Assembly (NCBI RefSeq): GCF_003334765.1 | Contig: NZ_QOWT01000058.1 | Strand: one strand, 5' to 3' | Origin: Escherichia coli | Lineage (GTDB): Bacteria; Pseudomonadota; Gammaproteobacteria; Enterobacterales; Enterobacteriaceae | Length of the DNA stretch: 10,459 bases | In this document: piece after piece, positions 3,143-7,559 of the stretch | Numbering within the stretch: the first letter of the stretch is position 1 | How the letters are laid out: each line of letters starts with the position of its first letter | Translations under genes and position numbers: made by a program | Notes under the pieces: model-generated | Database searches by the model: none | Told to the model about the DNA's origin: nothing | What the model saw: only the letters and a program-made list of their open reading frames with translations

Positions 3143-3322
3143 ATGAAAAACGCATTGCAGTTTTTGTTTGTTGCGTTCTGGTTGTTCGCATCATGTATGC
3201 CCATCATCTTCACAGCAAGGTATATGGAAAAAGTTGATGTTTTGATATTAATATTTGGATATATAAATGCCCTTTTTTTAGGGGTGTTCATGGCGGTCAT
3301 GTGCATTGAATACTGGCGGTAA
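3143..3322 (+). CDS. Small two-transmembrane-helix protein (59 aa), a moron-like accessory gene
   Basis: AGGAGG at 3133-3138 lies 4 nt before ATG 3143. The product is MKNALQFLFVAFWLFASCMPIIFTARYMEKVDVLILIFGYINALFLGVFMAVMCIEYWR, with two ~20-residue hydrophobic spans separated by a charged loop. The gene sits in a visibly AT-rich patch (~3040-3330). The ATG at 3104 from the ORF track has no SD. Confidence 0.6.
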   Translation: MKNALQFLFVAFWLFASCMPIIFTARYMEKVDVLILIFGYINALFLGVFMAVMCIEYWR

Positions 3323-3382
3323 ATACAGCGAACTCCATTGGTTTAGTTGGATATTTACTGTGCTGGACAAAAACGGTTTGCG

Positions 3383-3596
3383 GGGAAATCTTAGTTAAGT
3401 AGAATGACTGCGGGTGCTTGAGGCTATCTGCCTCGGGCATGGACACCAACGGCAGATAGAGAAAAGCCCCAGTTAACATTACGCGTCCTGCAAGACGCTT
3501 AACATTAATCTGAGGCCAATTTCATGCTAGACACATGTAGGTTAGCCTCTTACGTGCCGAAAGGCACGGAGAAGCAGGCTATTGTTAACACCAAGC
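3383..3596 (+). other. Hairpin-dense non-coding segment, a possible structured RNA or remnant, ending at the IS junction
   Basis: No ORF looks credible in any frame. There is a 9-bp stem at 3424-3432/3451-3459. A 5-bp stem at 3483-3487/3494-3498 is flanked by direct TTAACATTA copies (3473-3481 and 3499-3507). A 37-nt composite hairpin at 3544-3580 carries a GAAA tetraloop (AGCCT-CTT-a-CGTGCC GAAA GGCACG-gag-AAG-c-AGGCT). Confidence 0.3.
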
Positions 3597-5212
3597 TGTA
3601 ATGTCCCCTTTGAACCATTCTAAAATGTCCCCAGACAATTCTCTGGGGGATTTTTCATGATCAAAGAGACTGTTACGATGAGTCATAAGGAACTCCACCG
3701 ACTTCAGATTATTCAGGAACAAGCTGCGGCACGCATTGGCATTTCTATTCGGCAGGTTAAACGTCTGGTGCAACGGTATAGAAATGAAGGGCCTTCTGGT
3801 CTGGTTTCCCACCGACGTGGAAAGCGTCCTAATAATTCCTTTTCTACTGAATTCAGAGCAACAGTAATTTCACTCCTCAAAGGCCGTTACGCTGATTTTG
3901 GACCTACGTTTGCGTGCGAAAAATTGCGCGAGATACACGGTTTATCTTTATCCGTTGAAACTCTCAGAAAGTGGATGATAGAAGAGGGGTTATGGCGTGA
4001 ACGCCGTCGTAAAATTGCCCGTATATATCAACGCCGCATGCGACGACCATCTTACGGTGAACTGATCCAGATTGATGGCTCACCTCATGACTGGTTTGAA
4101 AATCGAGGCCCCAGATGTACACTGATCGTTTTCATTGATGATGCCACCAGTGCGTTGATGGCGTTGCGTTTTGTGCCTGCTGAAACAACCCGGGCTTACA
4201 TGGAAACCCTCCGGGGTTACCTTAATGATCATGGCGTACCGCTCGCTCTCTACTCTGATAGACACAGTATATTCAGGGTAAATAACCCAGAGCGGGAAGG
4301 TGAGCTGACCCAGTTCACTCGTGCGATAAAGACACTGGGCATCGAGCCAATCCATGCCAACAGCCCGCAGGCAAAAGGGCGGGTAGAGCGCGCCAATCAG
4401 ACACTACAGGACAGGCTGGTCAAAGAAATGCGGCTTCAGAATATCAGTGATATTGAAACAGCAAATGCATGGTTGCCGACCTTTATTGAAGCCTATAACA
4501 ACCGGTTCGCTACGTCGCCTCGTACTACTGATAATGCTCATCTTGATGTGCACCATTCTGAAGAGGAACTGGGTTATATCTTCAGCCTACAGGCGAAGCG
4601 CGTTCTGTCTAAAAATCTCACTTTCCAGTACAAAAGCAGTGCGTTTCAGGTACGCAGTGAGGGCCGGGGATATCGACTTAGGCATTCGGTTGTTACTGTA
4701 TGCGAGAACTTTGACGGTGAAATTAACGTTCTGTATGACGGGAAAGCGCTGGGCTGGGAAAAGTATGTTGATGGCCCGGAGCCTATACCACTGGATGATG
4801 AAAAGAGTGTCCATGAACGAGTGGATAATGCCCGTATTGATTTACGCTCAAAATACTATGTTAAACCTAAAGCTGACCATCCCTGGCTTACGCGCCGAAC
4901 GCAAAGTCATCAGCAAGTTAAGCCCCCGAAGTTACCTAAAAAGAAGCCTGATCCCGATAAAAAAGATTGAAACCAAGATCGATTCGGTTGAGTGCATATC
5001 CATTCATAGGGTAGATTCTTAAGTCGCGTTTCTGGTGTTCATTTTCGGGTGGTTTGTTACTTGTTTTACCGGGGATATGCCAGAAACGCGCTGAGTCAGT
5101 CTGGGCGGTGCGCGTAATGAGGCGTTATGGTAAATAGCCTATGCTAATGTCCGCTAAGAGCAAGAAGCGGAAGTTGGCAGTTTTGTGGACTGTCCCCACA
5201 AAAGTGACTACA
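3597..5212 (+). mobile_element. ISNCY-family (IS1202-group-like) insertion sequence; the boundaries are approximate
   Basis: It carries a single long DDE transposase ORF. The candidate ends are TGT... (3597) and ...ACA (5212), giving 1616 bp, which matches what I recall for the IS1202 group (TGT ends, 1.4-1.7 kb). The terminal repeats are only imperfect: TGTAATGTCCCCTTTG versus reverse-complement TGTAGTCACTTTTG, with a 2-nt gap. I found no flanking direct repeat. Confidence 0.5.
3657..4970 (+). CDS. ISNCY/IS1202-like transposase with an N-terminal HTH and an rve-type DDE core
   Basis: 437-aa ORF. The N-terminus MSHKELHRLQIIQ...GISIRQVKRLVQRYRNEGPSGLVSHRRGKRPNN is typical of proteins annotated as ISNCY family transposase. 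The DDE-region motifs are LIQIDGSPHDWF, ALYSDRHSIF and GRVERANQTLQDRL. GGGGGA lies 6 nt before ATG 3657; an alternative ATG is at 3678. Confidence 0.9.
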   Translation: MIKETVTMSHKELHRLQIIQEQAAARIGISIRQVKRLVQRYRNEGPSGLVSHRRGKRPNNSFSTEFRATVISLLKGRYADFGPTFACEKLREIHGLSLSVETLRKWMIEEGLWRERRRKIARIYQRRMRRPSYGELIQIDGSPHDWFENRGPRCTLIVFIDDATSALMALRFVPAETTRAYMETLRGYLNDHGVPLALYSDRHSIFRVNNPEREGELTQFTRAIKTLGIEPIHANSPQAKGRVERANQTLQDRLVKEMRLQNISDIETANAWLPTFIEAYNNRFATSPRTTDNAHLDVHHSEEELGYIFSLQAKRVLSKNLTFQYKSSAFQVRSEGRGYRLRHSVVTVCENFDGEINVLYDGKALGWEKYVDGPEPIPLDDEKSVHERVDNARIDLRSKYYVKPKADHPWLTRRTQSHQQVKPPKLPKKKPDPDKKD

Positions 5213-5368
5213 GAAATAGTTGCAATTCATAATTGATCATGGGTTGTCAGTTAAACTCGTGGCGATTTAAATAGACTAATTGGGAGTGCGTCCATTACTT
5301 ATATCTTGTAATGTTAACTATCAGAAATGATACAAAGATAATATGTCTTTAAAGAAAAGGCTGATGGC

Positions 5369-5392
5369 GAAAAGTGGCCCGATGAGGGCCAC
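5369..5392 (-). terminator. Rho-independent terminator downstream of flxA
   Basis: On the minus strand it reads GTGGCCC-tcatc-GGGCCAC followed by TTTTCGCC, starting 15 nt after the flxA stop. Confidence 0.6.
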
Positions 5393-5406
5393 AATACGGC
5401 TGTCAC

Positions 5407-5739
5407 TTAGACGTAAATATCAATGGTGCCAGCGGTATTTGTATCGTCTTTTTTCTCTTCTTTTTTATCAGGCTGAACTGTCGCGTCTTCATTCTTTTTC
5501 TCTGCCTGCTGCCTTAACAACTGCTCCAGTTGAGCCCAGAGGCTTTCAATTTGCTTCTGTACCAATGCAGCCATTTCTTTTTTCTGCTGTGTCGTCATCC
5601 CCTCTTCCGATGAGATTTTCCCAAGCTTTTCAGTCAGCACCTGAATTTGTCTTGTGATTTTGGCTATTTCTGATGTTCCTTCCGGGGCGGAGTTGTTTGA
5701 AATAACGGTTGAGGTATTTCCCTGAATTGTGACAGACAT
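5407..5739 (-). CDS. flxA: FlxA, a Qin prophage protein of the FliA regulon
   Basis: The 110-aa ORF MSVTIQGNTSTVISNNSAPEGTSEIAKITRQIQVLTEKLGK... matches K-12 FlxA as I remember it. It is preceded by a near-consensus sigma28 promoter. Confidence 0.9.
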   Translation of the reverse strand: MSVTIQGNTSTVISNNSAPEGTSEIAKITRQIQVLTEKLGKISSEEGMTTQQKKEMAALVQKQIESLWAQLEQLLRQQAEKKNEDATVQPDKKEEKKDDTNTAGTIDIYV

Positions 5740-5762
5740 AGATTTCTCCTTTTAAAAAAGCA

Positions 5763-5789
5763 CTATCGGCATGCACAAAAAAATCTTTA
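5763..5789 (-). promoter_or_regulatory. Sigma28 (FliA) promoter of flxA
   Basis: The minus strand reads TAAAGATT (5789-5782), then 11 nt, then GCCGATAG (5770-5763). The consensus is TAAAGTTT-N11-GCCGATAA. Confidence 0.8.
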
Positions 5790-5870
5790 ATCGTATTTCT
5801 TGTGTCATTAATTGTTTGATGTTCAGATTGTTTTCCTCGCGGGCTGGCGCGCCTCAGAAAGTAAAGCTTG

Positions 5871-5898
5871 TTGACAGGGGTAAACGTTCGGCAATAAT
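5871..5898 (+). promoter_or_regulatory. Candidate strong sigma70 promoter on the plus strand, in the flxA-ydfV intergenic region and reading antisense into ydfV, toward relBE
   Basis: TTGACA (5871-5876), a 16-nt spacer, then AATAAT (5893-5898). A 10-bp palindrome CCGCATGCGG follows at 5905-5914. Confidence 0.4.
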
Positions 5899-5941
5899 TT
5901 TCTGCCGCATGCGGGTGTTGCATAAAACGTGTTACGTTCCT

Positions 5942-6247
5942 TTATCGACAGGTCAGGTCACCGCTCACCCGCCGACGAGAAAGCAACACTGACATGCTAA
6001 AGCAAAAAATAGATGAATAAGTTGAGTTGTGCATATGTAGCCTGACCGTCACAAAGTATATGGTGTCTGTACCAGTAAGATGATGGCCGGACTCTTTAAA
6101 AACGAGCTGACCTGCACAATACAGGATGGACTTAGCAATGGCTGCTCCTGGCACAAAGCGGACAGTGATCACCGTTCTTACGACTACTTTCTGACTTCCT
6201 TCGTGACTTGCCCTAAGCATGTTGTAGTGCGATACTTGTAATGACAT
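5942..6247 (-). CDS. ydfV: YdfV, an uncharacterised Qin prophage ORF. Coding status is doubtful.
   Basis: The 101-aa ORF matches the length and position of K-12 ydfV as I remember it. No recognisable SD precedes the ATG, the start codon lies inside the relBE operator, and the composition is unremarkable. Confidence 0.4.
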   Translation of the reverse strand: MSLQVSHYNMLRASHEGSQKVVVRTVITVRFVPGAAIAKSILYCAGQLVFKESGHHLTGTDTIYFVTVRLHMHNSTYSSIFCFSMSVLLSRRRVSGDLTCR

Positions 6248-6259
6248 TTGTAATTACAA
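6208..6259 (+). promoter_or_regulatory. relBE promoter and relO operator
   Basis: TTGCCC (6208-6213), a 17-nt spacer, then GATACT (6231-6236). TTGTAAT repeats sit at 6236-6242 and 6248-6254, and the palindrome TTGTAATTACAA at 6248-6259 lies just upstream of the relB SD. Confidence 0.7.
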
Positions 6260-6271
6260 GAGGTGTAAGAC

Positions 6272-6511
6272 ATGGGTAGCATTAACCTGCGTATTGACGA
6301 TGAACTTAAAGCGCGTTCTTACGCCGCGCTTGAAAAAATGGGTGTAACTCCTTCTGAAGCGCTTCGTCTCATGCTCGAGTATATCGCTGACAATGAACGC
6401 TTGCCGTTCAAACAGACACTCCTGAGTGATGAAGATGCTGAACTTGTGGAGATAGTGAAAGAACGGCTTCGTAATCCTAAGCCAGTACGTGTGACGCTGG
6501 ATGAACTCTGA
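6272..6511 (+). CDS. relB: RelB antitoxin (type II TA)
   Basis: The 79-aa sequence MGSINLRIDDELKARSYAALEKMGVTPSEALRLMLEYIADNERLPFKQ... is recognised as K-12 RelB. Its stop overlaps the relE ATG (TGATG). Confidence 0.97.
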   Translation: MGSINLRIDDELKARSYAALEKMGVTPSEALRLMLEYIADNERLPFKQTLLSDEDAELVEIVKERLRNPKPVRVTLDEL

Positions 6512-6798
6512 TGGCGTATTTTCTGGATTTTGACGAGCGGGCACTAAAGGAATGGCGAAAGCTGGGCTCGACGGTACGTGAACAGTTGAAAAAGAAGCTG
6601 GTTGAAGTACTTGAGTCACCCCGGATTGAAGCAAACAAGCTCCGTGGTATGCCTGATTGTTACAAGATTAAGCTCCGGTCTTCAGGCTATCGCCTTGTAT
6701 ACCAGGTTATAGACGAGAAAGTTGTCGTTTTCGTGATTTCTGTTGGGAAAAGAGAACGCTCGGAAGTATATAGCGAGGCGGTCAAACGCATTCTCTGA
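6511..6798 (+). CDS. relE: RelE, a ribosome-dependent mRNA interferase toxin
   Basis: The 95-aa sequence MAYFLDFDERALKEWRKLGSTVREQLKKKLVEVLESPRIEANKLRGMPDCYKIKLRSSGYRLVYQVIDEKVVVFVISVGKRERSEVYSEAVKRIL is recognised as K-12 RelE. Confidence 0.97.
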   Translation: MAYFLDFDERALKEWRKLGSTVREQLKKKLVEVLESPRIEANKLRGMPDCYKIKLRSSGYRLVYQVIDEKVVVFVISVGKRERSEVYSEAVKRIL

Positions 6799-6869
6799 AC
6801 CAAAGCATGACATCTCTGTTTCGCACCGAAGGTGACACTTCTGCTTTGCGTTGACAGGAGAAGCAGGCT

Positions 6870-7025
6870 ATGAAGCAGCAAAAGGCGATGTTAATCGCCC
6901 TGATCGTCATCTGTTTAACCGTCATAGTGACGGCACTGGTAACGAGGAAAGACCTCTGCGAGGTACGAATCCGAACCGGCCAGACGGAGGTCGCTGTCTT
7001 CACAGCTTACGAACCTGAGGAGTAA
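6870..7025 (+). CDS. hokD: HokD (RelF), a Hok-family membrane toxin. It falls below the ORF-track length cutoff.
   Basis: Manual translation gives MKQQKAMLIALIVICLTVIVTALVTRKDLCEVRIRTGQTEVAVFTAYEPEE* (51 aa). GGAG lies upstream at 6856-6859. The hok-type context ggtgacacttctgctttgcgttgacaggagaagcaggctATG is present. Confidence 0.9.
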   Translation: MKQQKAMLIALIVICLTVIVTALVTRKDLCEVRIRTGQTEVAVFTAYEPEE

Positions 7026-7092
7026 GAGACCCGGCGGGGGAGAAATCCCTCGCCACCTCTGATGTGGCAGGCATCCTCAACGCACCCGCACT

Positions 7093-7120
7093 TAACCCGC
7101 TTCGGCGGGTTTTTGTTTTT
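7093..7120 (+). terminator. Rho-independent terminator ending the relBE-hokD transcript
   Basis: AACCCGC-ttcg-GCGGGTT followed by TTTTGTTTTTATTTT. Confidence 0.8.
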
Positions 7121-7493: not shown

Positions 7494-7559
7494 ACTCATC
7501 TACAATCTTGCGCGGGGCTGAACTCCCGCTGAGTAACACCGTGCCACCGGAGAAAACCG

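What the first reader, a model, noticed from the sequence alone, without database searches (positions are those of the whole stretch)
3597..5212. The ISNCY-like element has unusual internal structures and no detectable target-site duplication
Immediately upstream of the transposase ATG lies a hairpin (3628-3635/3642-3649, 7 bp plus a G-U pair) followed by T5. Its 3' arm is the GGGGGA SD. It therefore looks both like a terminator against read-through from outside and like an SD-sequestering structure. The right part contains a perfect 11-bp inverted repeat (5025-5035/5080-5090, 44-nt loop) and an 8-bp hairpin at the very end (5181-5188/5196-5203). The motif TGTCCCC occurs three times in the same orientation (3602, 3626, 5191) rather than inverted. 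The proposed terminal repeats are weak, and neither a 5-bp nor a ~27-bp direct repeat flanks 3597/5212. This is compatible with an IS-mediated adjacent deletion or with recombination between two copies.
Basis: partly seen in the sequence, partly recalled or inferred. Interest (0 to 1): 0.3.

Follow-up and report, generated by a model that had tools for sequence, protein, structure and literature searches.

The report
relBE transposon inserted at the sok promoter
The supposed 1.6-kb insertion sequence without a target duplication is the left half of a 3.3-kb transposon that carries the classic E. coli relBE toxin-antitoxin genes, has clear ends and a 15-bp duplication, and sits, like many of its relatives, at a fixed distance upstream of the promoter of the sok antisense RNA in a hok/sok locus.

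Summary
An uninterrupted prophage hok/sok locus aligns with the window up to 3582 and resumes at 6857. The inserted block is 3583-6856 (3274 bp). It ends 5'-TGT...ACA-3', has 22/30 imperfect terminal inverted repeats, and is flanked by a perfect 15-bp duplication, GGAGAAGCAGGCTAT.

It is an IS1202-family transposon with an ISEsa1-like transposase. Its cargo is flxA, ydfV' and relB-relE. It splits the hok leader and sok from the hokD reading frame, which produces the known relB-relE-hokD arrangement.

Relatives in many Enterobacterales share the same ends around variable cargo. They show independent 13-16-bp duplications, mostly in different hok leaders. Simple relatives of 1.4-1.8 kb in other phyla make 15-16-bp duplications.

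Across 89 non-hok sites, the DNA next to the left end reads, on the opposite strand, TTGACA-N17-TAnnnT, 15-16 bp from the insertion point. Of these, 51% match at least 8/12, against 0-4% in shifted registers. In hok loci this sequence is where I place the sok promoter.

The hairpin in front of the transposase gene is a conserved family feature. The window's transposase has a 27-bp in-frame deletion.

The parts
3412..3582 (+). hok mRNA leader with the sok antisense region, cut off exactly at the hok start codon (ATT here instead of ATG)
   Evidence: Rfam RF01794 'sok', 104 bits against a gathering score of 59. Aligns with intact hok loci up to 3582.
3539..3567 (-). Inferred sok promoter, firing leftwards. 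The -35 is the reverse complement of 3562-3567 (GTGCCT here, TTGCCT in most other strains). The spacer is 17 nt. The -10 is the reverse complement of 3539-3544 (TAACCT).
   Evidence: The position is inferred from the conserved TTGCxx-N17-TAnnnT in the distinct hok flanks and from my recollection of the R1 parB sequence. It was not called by the 9/12 promoter scan. Base 3567 is C here and A in other strains.
3568..3582 (.). Left copy of the 15-bp target-site duplication GGAGAAGCAGGCTAT
   Evidence: D10.
3583..3612 (+). Left terminal inverted repeat (IRL), starting 5'-TGT. It contains transposase-binding repeat 1 (3590-3608).
   Evidence: Homology with relatives in unrelated flanks starts at 3580-3583. 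The first 80 nt are identical (80/80) in 12 of the 19 loci scanned. 22/30 match to the reverse complement of 6827-6856 (read directly from the sequences).
3614..3632 (+). Second, subterminal copy of the transposase-binding repeat (ACCATTCTAAAATGTCCCC)
   Evidence: D7 (79% identical to 3590-3608, spacing 24). Conserved across the clade.
3628..3654 (+). Hairpin pairing repeat 2 with the SD (GGGGGA, 3644-3649), followed by T5
   Evidence: Conserved with compensating changes in relatives.
3657..4970 (+). Transposase gene (437 aa). This allele has a 27-bp in-frame deletion between 3712 and 3713 that removes 9 residues of the N-terminal HTH region. The last 49 codons are what PGAP calls 'ydfW'.
   Evidence: NF033594, 456 bits. 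Full-length relatives of 446-447 aa cover 99-100% of the query. Deletion seen against strain SC422. PGAP annotation.
4971..5164 (+). Conserved non-coding tail of the transposase module. It includes the long hairpin 5025-5090 and the hairpin TCCGCT..AGCGGA (5149-5170) at the cargo junction.
   Evidence: Homology with relatives and with 831 plasmids stops at 5161-5165. Fold z = -4.1.
5165..6143 (-). Lineage-specific cargo: flxA (5407-5739, minus strand) and most of ydfV (5942-6247, minus strand; this ORF runs across the junction at 6144/6164)
   Evidence: PGAP annotation of 100%-identical DNA. Replaced by other cargo in relatives.
6144..6826 (+). Conserved right-hand module: relB (6272-6511) and relE (6511-6798), reading outwards
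   Evidence: About 99% identical in relatives and present in 784 plasmids. No terminator-like site in 6100-7100.
6827..6856 (-). Right terminal inverted repeat (IRR), ending ...GTTGACA-3'. A degenerate second repeat lies around 6803-6822.
   Evidence: Homology with relatives in unrelated flanks ends at 6856-6857. Sequence.
6857..6871 (.). Right copy of the 15-bp duplication. It supplies the SD and the AT of the hokD start codon.
6870..7025 (+). hokD (relF) reading frame, separated from its own leader by the transposon
   Evidence: Translation. Same protein accession (WP_000813254.1) as the hok of the uninterrupted locus L006.

Best explanation
**What it is.** The finding covers the left half of a 3274-bp IS1202-family transposon, window 3583-6856. 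The parts, from left to right, are:
- a left inverted repeat with two tandem transposase-binding repeats;
- a hairpin that masks the ribosome-binding site;
- a DDE transposase gene of the ISEsa1 type;
- a conserved non-coding tail;
- variable cargo, here flxA and ydfV';
- a conserved relB-relE toxin-antitoxin module that reads outwards through the right inverted repeat.

**Shown.** The element moved as one unit into a hok/sok locus of a lambdoid (Qin-type) prophage and duplicated 15 bp of target. The insertion separates the hok leader and sok from the hokD reading frame. The right copy of the duplication rebuilds hokD's ribosome-binding site and start codon.

**Inferred from layout, with literature support.** hokD becomes the third gene behind relBE. 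No terminator lies between them, and the literature reports co-transcription.

**Shown statistically.** Transposases of this clade insert 15-16 bp from a sequence that reads TTGACA-N17-TAnnnT on the opposite strand. The left end faces that sequence.

**Inferred.** In hok loci that sequence is the sok promoter. That would explain why many independent insertions hit the hok start region. Whether the transposase reads the DNA motif itself or a bound RNA polymerase is not known.

**This copy.** It is probably immobile. Its transposase lacks 9 residues of the DNA-binding region.
For: **Empty site.**
- The intact hok locus L006 matches the window to 3582 and again from 6856, with a 16-bp overlap.
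- The perfect 15-bp repeat lies at 3568-3582 and 6857-6871.

**Ends.**
- Relatives in unrelated flanks begin homology at 3580-3583 and end it at 6856-6857.
- Junctions were printed for 10 loci. The elements are 4487-7320 bp long. Their duplications are GGAGAAGAAGGCCAT, GGAGAAGAAGCCATG, GATATGCTGACAAA, GATGTTAGCCATG, and CCAGGCGGTACAGTAT at a non-hok site.
- L080 has CATTAAGCTGCAAAT at another non-hok site.

**Family.**
- NF033594 scores 456 bits.
- PGAP names the intact allele 'IS1202-like element ISEsa1 family transposase'.
- D149, D170, D171, D210, E253 and Q260 are invariant. This matches the family signature in bioRxiv 10.1101/2022.12.17.520857.
- TGT/ACA termini and a second internal binding repeat match PMC10132070.
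- A 15-17-bp duplication matches the ISTde1 subgroup.

**Simple relatives.** Multi-copy relatives in Hahella, Thiorhodospira, Arenicellales and Binatia are 1443-1785 bp. 28 of the 32 listed copies carry a 15-16-bp duplication; four Thiorhodospira copies do not. Across 61 copies with both ends found, the duplication is 15 bp in 27 and 16 bp in 29.

**Target.**
- 35 distinct hok-leader junctions were found. They include four divergent left-end lineages.
- In 89 non-hok sites, 51% match TTGACA-N16-18-TATAAT at 8/12 or better in the 15-16 register. In shifted registers and on the other strand the figure is 0-4%. An offset scan peaks only at 15-17.
- In sites anchored on CAA, A(-29) is present in 78% and T(-25) in 80%.

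**Spread.** The transposase module is in 831 PLSDB plasmids and the relBE-IRR module in 784. Most are conjugative.

**Literature.** relBE 'integrated' into hokD is reported in PMC6379469. relBEF co-transcription is reported in PMC5120126.
Against: - The IRL/IRR match is only 22/30, and the repeat finder did not pick it up.
- The position of the sok promoter is inferred. The candidate matches only 7/12 of the consensus and was not called by the promoter scan at 9/12. I could not retrieve a source giving its coordinates.
- A test for genes starting downstream of the promoter-like targets was inconclusive: 51% against 44% in controls. The targets may therefore be promoter-like sequences rather than working promoters.
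- About 40% of non-hok sites lack a clear CAA in register.
- Many hok junctions could be mutated descendants of fewer events, so the number of independent hok insertions is below 35.
- Over-representation of hok sites could partly reflect sampling of plasmids and prophages, or selection after insertion.
- No transposition experiment exists.
Confidence: 0.85

Rival explanations
1. One reading: a 1.6-kb ISNCY-type insertion sequence (about 3597-5212, or the 1609-bp unit listed as ISEsa1) that lost its target duplication through an IS-mediated adjacent deletion or through recombination between two copies.
For: - Homology among copies with different cargo stops at window 5161-5165.
- Intact copies of that segment measure 1609 bp. 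That is the length given for ISEsa1, which is listed with weak inverted repeats (15/22) and no duplication.
- No repeat flanks 3597/5212.
Against: - The empty site shows that the whole of 3583-6856 is the insert.
- A perfect 15-bp duplication flanks that block.
- Ten printed junctions and L080 use the same distal right end.
- The reverse complement of 5143-5164 matches the left end at only about 4 of 22 positions (my reading).
- The relBE-IRR module co-occurs in a similar number of plasmids (784 against 831).
Confidence: 0.03
2. The block is not a transposon. relBE and its neighbours entered by recombination between hok loci or by another horizontal-transfer route, and the 15-bp repeat is a by-product of homologous hok sequences.
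For: Earlier literature describes relBE simply as 'integrated' into hokD from plasmids. Hok leaders are repeated in E. coli genomes, with up to 9 places per genome.
Against: - The same ends are flanked by different duplicated sequences in different hok types.
- Two sites that are not hok carry 16-bp and 15-bp duplications (L010; L080).
- The termini are TGT/ACA with family-typical subterminal repeats, and a matching transposase is encoded inside.
Confidence: 0.03
3. The transposon is real, but the concentration in hok loci and next to promoter-like sequences reflects survival and sampling rather than a preference of the transposase. On this view such insertions are harmless, and hok loci ride on heavily sequenced plasmids and prophages.
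For: - Most Enterobacterales data come from plasmids and prophages.
- Insertion at the hok start disconnects a toxin gene from its leader, which should be tolerated.
- The downstream-gene test was inconclusive.
Against: - Selection would not fix the register. The motif sits 15-17 bp from the insertion point and only on one strand.
- The same register is seen in unrelated taxa with simple multi-copy elements.
- Tandem arrays show repeated hits at the same point.
Confidence: 0.12

Closest known systems
ISEsa1 (ISfinder entry; IS1202 group of ISNCY, now the IS1202 family)
   Same: PGAP labels the intact allele of this transposase 'IS1202-like element ISEsa1 family'. The conserved transposase module measures 1609 bp in intact copies, equal to the published ISEsa1 length. 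The published transposase is 439 aa, against 446 aa here.
   Different: ISEsa1 is published as a 1609-bp IS with 15/22 inverted repeats and no detectable duplication. Here the mobile unit is 3.3-7.3 kb. Its right end lies beyond relBE, and it makes 15-16-bp duplications. The database entry probably describes only the left module. I could not query ISfinder.
ISTde1 subgroup of the IS1202 family (Siguier et al., bioRxiv 10.1101/2022.12.17.520857)
   Same: TGT termini, a conserved internal inverted-repeat block around position 20, a single 400-500-aa DDE transposase with extra conserved D residues and Q at E+7, and 15-17-bp direct repeats.
   Different: That study reports no target preference for this subgroup, only one plasmid copy, and passenger genes only in other subgroups. 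This lineage is common on plasmids, carries several kb of cargo, and shows an oriented target at a fixed distance.
ISAjo2/ISAba32-type IS1202-family elements that target dif/pdif sites
   Same: Oriented insertion at a fixed distance from a recognised site, without accessory targeting proteins. The same end architecture: TGT/ACA plus a second binding repeat.
   Different: Those elements insert 5 bp from the XerC arm and make 5-bp duplications. This one inserts 15-16 bp from a -35-like hexamer and makes 15-16-bp duplications.
Tn7 (TnsB ends, attTn7 targeting)
   Same: TGT/ACA termini, several transposase-binding repeats in each end, and insertion at a set distance and orientation from a recognised sequence. 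This works like Tn7 in outline.
   Different: The element has no TnsA, TnsC, TnsD or TnsE genes. Tandem arrays suggest there is no target immunity.
relBEF (relB-relE-hokD) operon of E. coli K-12 and IS-disrupted chromosomal hok loci
   Same: The same genes with the same protein accessions. The literature reports hokD co-transcribed with relBE and relBE integrated into hokD. From my own memory of Pedersen & Gerdes 1999: hokD lacks the upstream regulatory elements, and other K-12 hok loci are interrupted by IS150/IS186.
   Different: K-12 keeps only window 4786 onwards. The left end, most of the transposase gene and the orphaned hok leader are missing there, which hides the transposon. I found no paper that describes the vehicle, its ends, its duplication or its target.

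Membership tests
IS1202 family (formerly IS1202 group of ISNCY) | Single large DDE transposase with an N-terminal HTH, homologous to family members | tested here: met
   NF033594 transpos_ISNCY_2, 456 bits against a cutoff of 250. Pfam HTH_32/29/28 above their cutoffs; rve_3 at 24.4 bits, just below its 26.5 cutoff. PGAP name.
IS1202 family (formerly IS1202 group of ISNCY) | Catalytic signature: D..DD..D..E, with Q seven residues after E | tested here: met
   D149, D170, D171, D210, E253 and Q260 are invariant in a 12-sequence alignment. The signature is as described.
IS1202 family (formerly IS1202 group of ISNCY) | Termini 5'-TGT ... ACA-3' with imperfect terminal inverted repeats of about 24-30 bp | tested here: met
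   3583 TGTTAAC... and ...GTTGACA 6856, matching at 22/30. The ends are confirmed by relatives.
IS1202 family (formerly IS1202 group of ISNCY) | Second, internal copy of the inner part of the inverted repeat near each end | tested here: met
   Left end: 3590-3608 and 3614-3632 (D7), conserved across the clade. Right end: a degenerate second copy around 6803-6822 (my reading).
ISTde1 subgroup of the IS1202 family | Target duplication of 15-17 bp | tested here: met
   15 bp here. 58 of 61 related copies have 15-17 bp.
ISTde1 subgroup of the IS1202 family | [quoted passage not shown] | not tested
Harmer et al. place ISEsa1 in a separate small subgroup.
ISEsa1 (isoform of the ISfinder entry) | High nucleotide and protein identity to the ISfinder reference, with the same ends | not testable with these tools
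   ISfinder is not available. The only support is the PGAP label and the matching 1609-bp length of the left module.
Composite transposon | Two IS copies bracketing the cargo | tested here: not met
   The element has only one transposase gene and one IRL/IRR pair.
Tn7-like transposons | TnsA, TnsC and a target selector (TnsD/TnsE or CRISPR) alongside the TnsB-like transposase | tested here: not met
   The ORFs inside 3583-6856 are the transposase, flxA, ydfV, relB and relE only.
[quoted passage not shown] | hok mRNA leader with the sok antisense region, followed by the Hok reading frame | tested here: met
   Rfam sok at 3412-3583. Hok ORF at 6870-7025. The two are contiguous in L006. Here they are 3.3 kb apart.
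RelBE type II toxin-antitoxin module (cargo) | Adjacent antitoxin and toxin genes of the RelB and RelE families | tested here: met
   ORFs 6272-6511 and 6511-6798. PGAP names them RelB (WP_000534858.1) and RelE (WP_000323025.1) on 100%-identical DNA.

The most novel reading that the evidence does not exclude
A whole clade of IS1202-family elements uses sigma-70 promoters as landing beacons. They insert 15-16 bp upstream of the -35 hexamer, with the left end facing the promoter. Recognition might go through RNA polymerase bound at the promoter rather than through the bare sequence. The Enterobacterales branch exploits this to home to the constitutive sok promoter. It thereby reaches plasmids and prophages, loads them with relBE and other cargo, and creates the relBE-hokD fusion that has been studied for decades in E. 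coli K-12.
Probability: 0.55. Interest if true: 0.85.

Novelty: new variant of a known kind. Interest (0 to 1): 0.7.

Why it matters
- relBE of E. coli K-12 is the founding RelBE toxin-antitoxin system. Showing that it is transposon cargo explains its odd coupling to hokD and hokD's missing regulatory elements. It also explains the pseudo-gene 'ydfW' and the 'partial transposase' annotations in hundreds of E. coli genomes.
- It implies that the published description of ISEsa1 (1609 bp, weak repeats, no duplication) covers only part of a larger mobile unit. That unit is present in about 800 sequenced plasmids of Klebsiella, Enterobacter, Citrobacter, Escherichia and Salmonella.
- I found no report of an oriented, fixed-distance preference for -35/-10-like sequences for this family. 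If confirmed, it would add a new kind of target choice for bacterial insertion sequences.
- The question can be tested directly with a cloned hok/sok locus.

Tried and rejected
1. **Plasmid matches to 5012-5212.** I first read these as a separate element at the right end. The locus shows an IS26-truncated remnant of the same flxA region.
2. **Junctions at 5124 and 5147 (L004, L005) as possible right ends or empty sites.** L004 is a deletion variant. L005 is a remnant that still carries the junction hairpins of the transposon backbone. There is no duplication at either.
3. **flxA-ydfV block 5147-6164 as a nested mobile element.** It is bounded by TGTCCGCT...AGCGGACA (I3). I dropped the idea because there is no duplication in L005. 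The repeat arms belong to two backbone hairpins that also occur in relatives with other cargo.
4. **The 2261-bp copy (L140) as a cargo-free form.** It is an internal deletion of the transposase gene.
5. **Left ends followed by non-transposase sequence (L153 type) as non-autonomous derivatives.** They carry a secondary 1.6-kb insertion inside the IRL.
6. **Whether promoter-like targets have a gene starting downstream.** Mechanical ORFs give too high a background: 51% against 44%. The result is inconclusive.
7. **Consensus promoter scan.** It does not call the inferred sok promoter, which matches 7/12 against a threshold of 9/12.
8. **Published coordinates of the sok promoter, and Ramisetty & Santhosh 2016.** Neither was available in the held library.
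Full report
**Context.** The window is E. coli DNA from a Qin-type lambdoid prophage. DNA 100% identical over 3400-5400 occurs in many complete genomes. There the neighbouring genes are annotated flxA, ydfV, relB, relE, hokD, rem, ydfU and ydfT. The ORF 3657-4970 (437 aa) matches the NCBIfam model for ISNCY-type transposases: NF033594, 456 bits against a cutoff of 250. It also has N-terminal HTH domains and a sub-threshold match to an integrase core.

**Check of the observation.**
- The hairpin 3628-3649 followed by T5 is there and the terminator scan calls it.
- The perfect 11-bp inverted repeat 5025-5035/5080-5090 is there. The surrounding 86 nt fold with z = -4.1.
- The hairpin 5181-5188/5196-5203 is there.
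- TGTCCCC occurs three times on the + strand. 17 of 200 shuffles do as well, so the count alone means little.
- No direct repeat flanks 3597/5212.

**Where the element really ends.**
- *Left flank.* Rfam places a hok/sok leader at 3412-3583, directly left of the proposed element. A search with 3250-3750 found thousands of hok loci, and their homology to the window stops at 3582.
- *Empty site.* One such locus, L006, is an uninterrupted prophage hok locus that encodes the same HokD protein accession as the window. It aligns with the window up to 3582 and resumes at 6856. Sixteen L006 bases are used twice.
- *Duplication.* Within the window, the only perfect direct repeat of 14 nt or more listed between 3540 and 6890 is GGAGAAGCAGGCTAT, at 3568-3582 and 6857-6871 (D10).
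- *Ends.* The insert is therefore 3583-6856, 3274 bp. It starts TGTTAAC and ends GTTGACA. Its first 30 nt match the reverse complement of its last 30 nt at 22 positions (read).

**Relatives confirm both ends.**
- A genome scan with a transposase alignment returned 80 loci.
- In Enterobacter, Citrobacter, Kluyvera, Leclercia, Pseudocitrobacter, Huaxiibacter and Superficieibacter, homology to the window covers two blocks. One is the left end plus transposase module (3583 to about 5165, roughly 90% identical). The other is the relBE-right-end module (6144-6856, about 99% identical). Different cargo lies between them.
- Where the flanks are unrelated to the window, homology starts at 3580-3583 and stops at 6856-6857.
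- The printed junctions show elements of 4487-7320 bp, each flanked by its own duplication:
  - GGAGAAGAAGGCCAT;
  - GGAGAAGAAGCCATG;
  - GATATGCTGACAAA, in a hokE-like locus;
  - GATGTTAGCCATG;
  - CCAGGCGGTACAGTAT, at a site that is not hok.
- L080 has CATTAAGCTGCAAAT at another non-hok site, and its cargo includes a different toxin-antitoxin pair.

The unit that transposes is therefore the whole block including relBE.

**Anatomy.**
- *Left end.* It carries two tandem repeats ending in AATGTCCCC, at 3590-3608 and 3614-3632 (D7). This arrangement is conserved across the clade, from E. coli to Binatia. It explains two of the three TGTCCCC motifs.
- *Hairpin before the transposase gene.* The second repeat pairs with the SD just before the ATG. 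The pairing recurs in most lineages with compensating changes: CCCCAGA/TCTGGGG, CCCCG/CGGGG, CCCCTTTT/GGGAGGGG. The T-run that makes it terminator-like is confined to the Enterobacterales branch.
- *Transposase.* Full-length relatives have 446-447 residues and cover 99-100% of the query. The PGAP split into a 'partial transposase' and 'ydfW' is therefore an annotation artefact: ydfW is the last 49 codons of the transposase gene. The window allele lacks 27 bp between 3712 and 3713 compared with strain SC422. The deletion lies between short TCAGGA repeats and removes nine residues of the first HTH region. I infer that this copy cannot move by itself.
- *Non-coding tail.* The region 4971-5164, with the long hairpin, belongs to the conserved transposase module.
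- *Cargo and right module.* Cargo starts after a small hairpin at 5149-5170. The relBE module starts at about 6144. No terminator-like site lies between relE and hokD.

**Family.**
- The invariant residues D149, D170, D171, D210, E253 and Q260 fit the IS1202-family signature.
- TGT/ACA termini and an extra internal binding repeat are family traits.
- A 15-17-bp duplication defines the ISTde1 subgroup.
- PGAP names the intact allele 'ISEsa1 family'.
- Harmer et al. list ISEsa1 as 1609 bp, with 15/22 inverted repeats, no duplication detected and a 439-aa transposase.
- In PLSDB the left module occurs in 831 plasmids. Homology stops at window 5161-5164, and intact copies span exactly 1609 bp.

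I infer that the ISfinder entry describes only the left module of this transposon. That would explain its missing duplication. ISfinder itself could not be queried.

**Simple relatives.** Multi-copy elements in Hahella (1449 bp), Thiorhodospira (1443 bp), an Arenicellales MAG (1508 bp) and a Binatia MAG (1785 bp) have near-perfect ends: TGTTAGCCCAAAGCTGTAATGTCCCC and GGGGACATTTTAGAATTGGGTTGACA. Most copies carry a 15-16-bp duplication. Over 61 copies with both ends found, the duplication is 15 bp in 27, 16 bp in 29 and 17 bp in 2.

**Target choice.**
- *hok sites.* Scans of viral and metagenome contigs with the left-end sequence gave many more junctions. In E. coli prophages nearly all copies descend from the one Qin-type insertion. 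Elsewhere there are 35 distinct hok-leader junctions. They involve several hok types, registers that differ by one or two bases, and four divergent left-end lineages.
- *Tandem arrays.* Arrays of the form right end, 15 bp, left end show repeated hits at the same point.
- *Fixed distance.* In the ten hok junctions printed, the insertion point lies 39-40 bp from the start of the conserved TAGCC motif.
- *Non-hok sites.* They share (G/T)CAA immediately 5' of the duplication. Anchored on CAA (n = 54), they also show A at -29 (78%), T at -25 (80%) and A at -24 (63%).
- *What the motif is.* Its reverse complement reads TTGACA-N17-TAnnnT, the sigma-70 promoter consensus, pointing away from the left end of the element.
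- *Control test.*

| Measure (89 non-hok sites) | Register 15-16 bp | Shifted registers or other strand |
|---|---|---|
| Match of 8/12 or better | 51% | 0-4% |
| Match of 9/12 or better | 27% | 0-2% |

  An offset scan peaks only at 15-17 bp.
- *In hok loci.* The corresponding sequence is TTGCCT-N17-TAACCT (TATCCT and similar in other hok types). It lies on the strand antisense to hok, just upstream of the region that Sok RNA covers. This is where I recall the sok promoter of plasmid R1 to be. I could not find a held paper that gives the coordinates, so this step is inference.
- *Local variant.* The window lineage has G instead of T at the first -35 position (base 3567 is C). I note this as a possible decay of an orphaned sok.

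**Mechanism proposed, with status of each step.**
- *Shown.* One 3.27-kb unit with family-typical ends inserted into the hok start region and duplicated 15 bp.
- *Shown.* The insertion leaves the hok leader and sok on the left. It places relB-relE directly upstream of a rebuilt hokD ribosome-binding site and start codon.
- *Inferred from layout, supported by literature.* hokD is expressed as the third gene of the relBE operon. An earlier paper noted that relBE had 'integrated' into hokD.
- *Shown statistically.* The clade inserts at a fixed distance and orientation from a -35/-10-like sequence.
- *Inferred.* In hok loci this is the sok promoter. Targeting it gives the transposon access to plasmids and prophages.
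- *Open.* It is not known whether the transposase reads the DNA or a polymerase bound to it. A test for genes downstream of the targets was inconclusive.

**Why this stayed hidden.** E. coli K-12 retains only window 4786 onwards, with ydfX abutting the transposase remnant 'ydfW'. The left end, most of the transposase gene and the orphaned hok leader are absent from the reference strain.

**Literature.** Searches returned two descriptions of the IS1202 family, surveys that merely list ISEsa1, and hok or toxin-antitoxin reviews. None describes this transposon, its ends, its duplication or its target. One likely relevant paper, Ramisetty & Santhosh 2016, is not held.

**Verdict.** What is there is a relBE-carrying IS1202-family transposon with a 15-bp duplication at the hok start, next to the inferred sok promoter. 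It belongs to a widespread lineage with a previously unreported, promoter-like target preference. I rate it a new variant of a known kind, with interest 0.7.

Noticed in passing
window 4821-4970 and 3678-4700: PGAP annotates the last 49 codons of the intact transposase ORF as a separate gene, 'ydfW', and the rest as 'partial, missing C-terminus'. Full-length homologues of 446-447 aa cover 99-100% of the ORF, so this is an annotation artefact inherited from the truncated K-12 locus.
   Followed up: yes
window 3712/3713: A 27-bp in-frame deletion in the transposase gene relative to strain SC422 and to plasmid copies. It lies between short TCAGGA repeats. Both alleles circulate in E. coli: 3274-bp and 3301-bp elements.
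   Followed up: yes
window 3567: This lineage has C where other strains and the empty site have A. On the opposite strand this changes the first base of the inferred sok -35 from T to G. It may be decay of an orphaned antitoxin promoter.
   Followed up: partly
window 5942-6247 (minus strand): The annotated gene ydfV runs across the junction between the lineage-specific cargo and the conserved relBE module (about 6144-6164). It may be a chimeric reading frame rather than an ancestral gene.
   Followed up: no
window 5148-5168 and 6144-6164; L008 about 7500-7530 and 11300-11340; L010: The cargo is bracketed by related small hairpins: TCCGCT..AGCGGA, and GTCCGCTT..AAGCGGAC in relatives. In relatives, IS110-family and IS30-like elements sit inside the loops of these hairpins, so the loops may be hot spots for secondary insertions or cargo exchange.
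   Followed up: partly
L020 2654-7554 followed by a second element from 7565; L171, L253, L263: Tandem arrays in which the right end of one element is followed by 10-15 bp and then the left end of another, sometimes divergent, element. This implies repeated use of the same target and no target immunity.
   Followed up: partly
L116 (IMG/VR contig): The complete 3301-bp flxA-relBE element sits at a non-hok site next to TTGAGA-N17-TAGCAT, but with only 6 bp repeated (CGCCTT). A 9-bp loss between two TGTT motifs would explain it.
   Followed up: partly
L080 5927-10201 (Scandinavium hiltneri): A divergent member (transposase about 80% identical) carries two putative acyltransferase ORFs and, near its right end, two small minus-strand ORFs that may be a different toxin-antitoxin pair, instead of relBE. 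These cargo functions were guessed from the first residues of the ORFs and no domain search was run.
   Followed up: no
L001 1513-3480, versus window about 2460-2468: Strain W5-6 has an ISEc22 (IS66-family) insertion in the prophage region upstream. The window lacks it. Other strains have IS1, IS3 or ISSen4 inside the transposon itself.
   Followed up: no
L069 and L081 (Candidatus Foliamicus MAG): Pairs of simple elements share the same 16-bp duplication read on opposite strands. This means two copies inserted head-to-head at one site.
   Followed up: no
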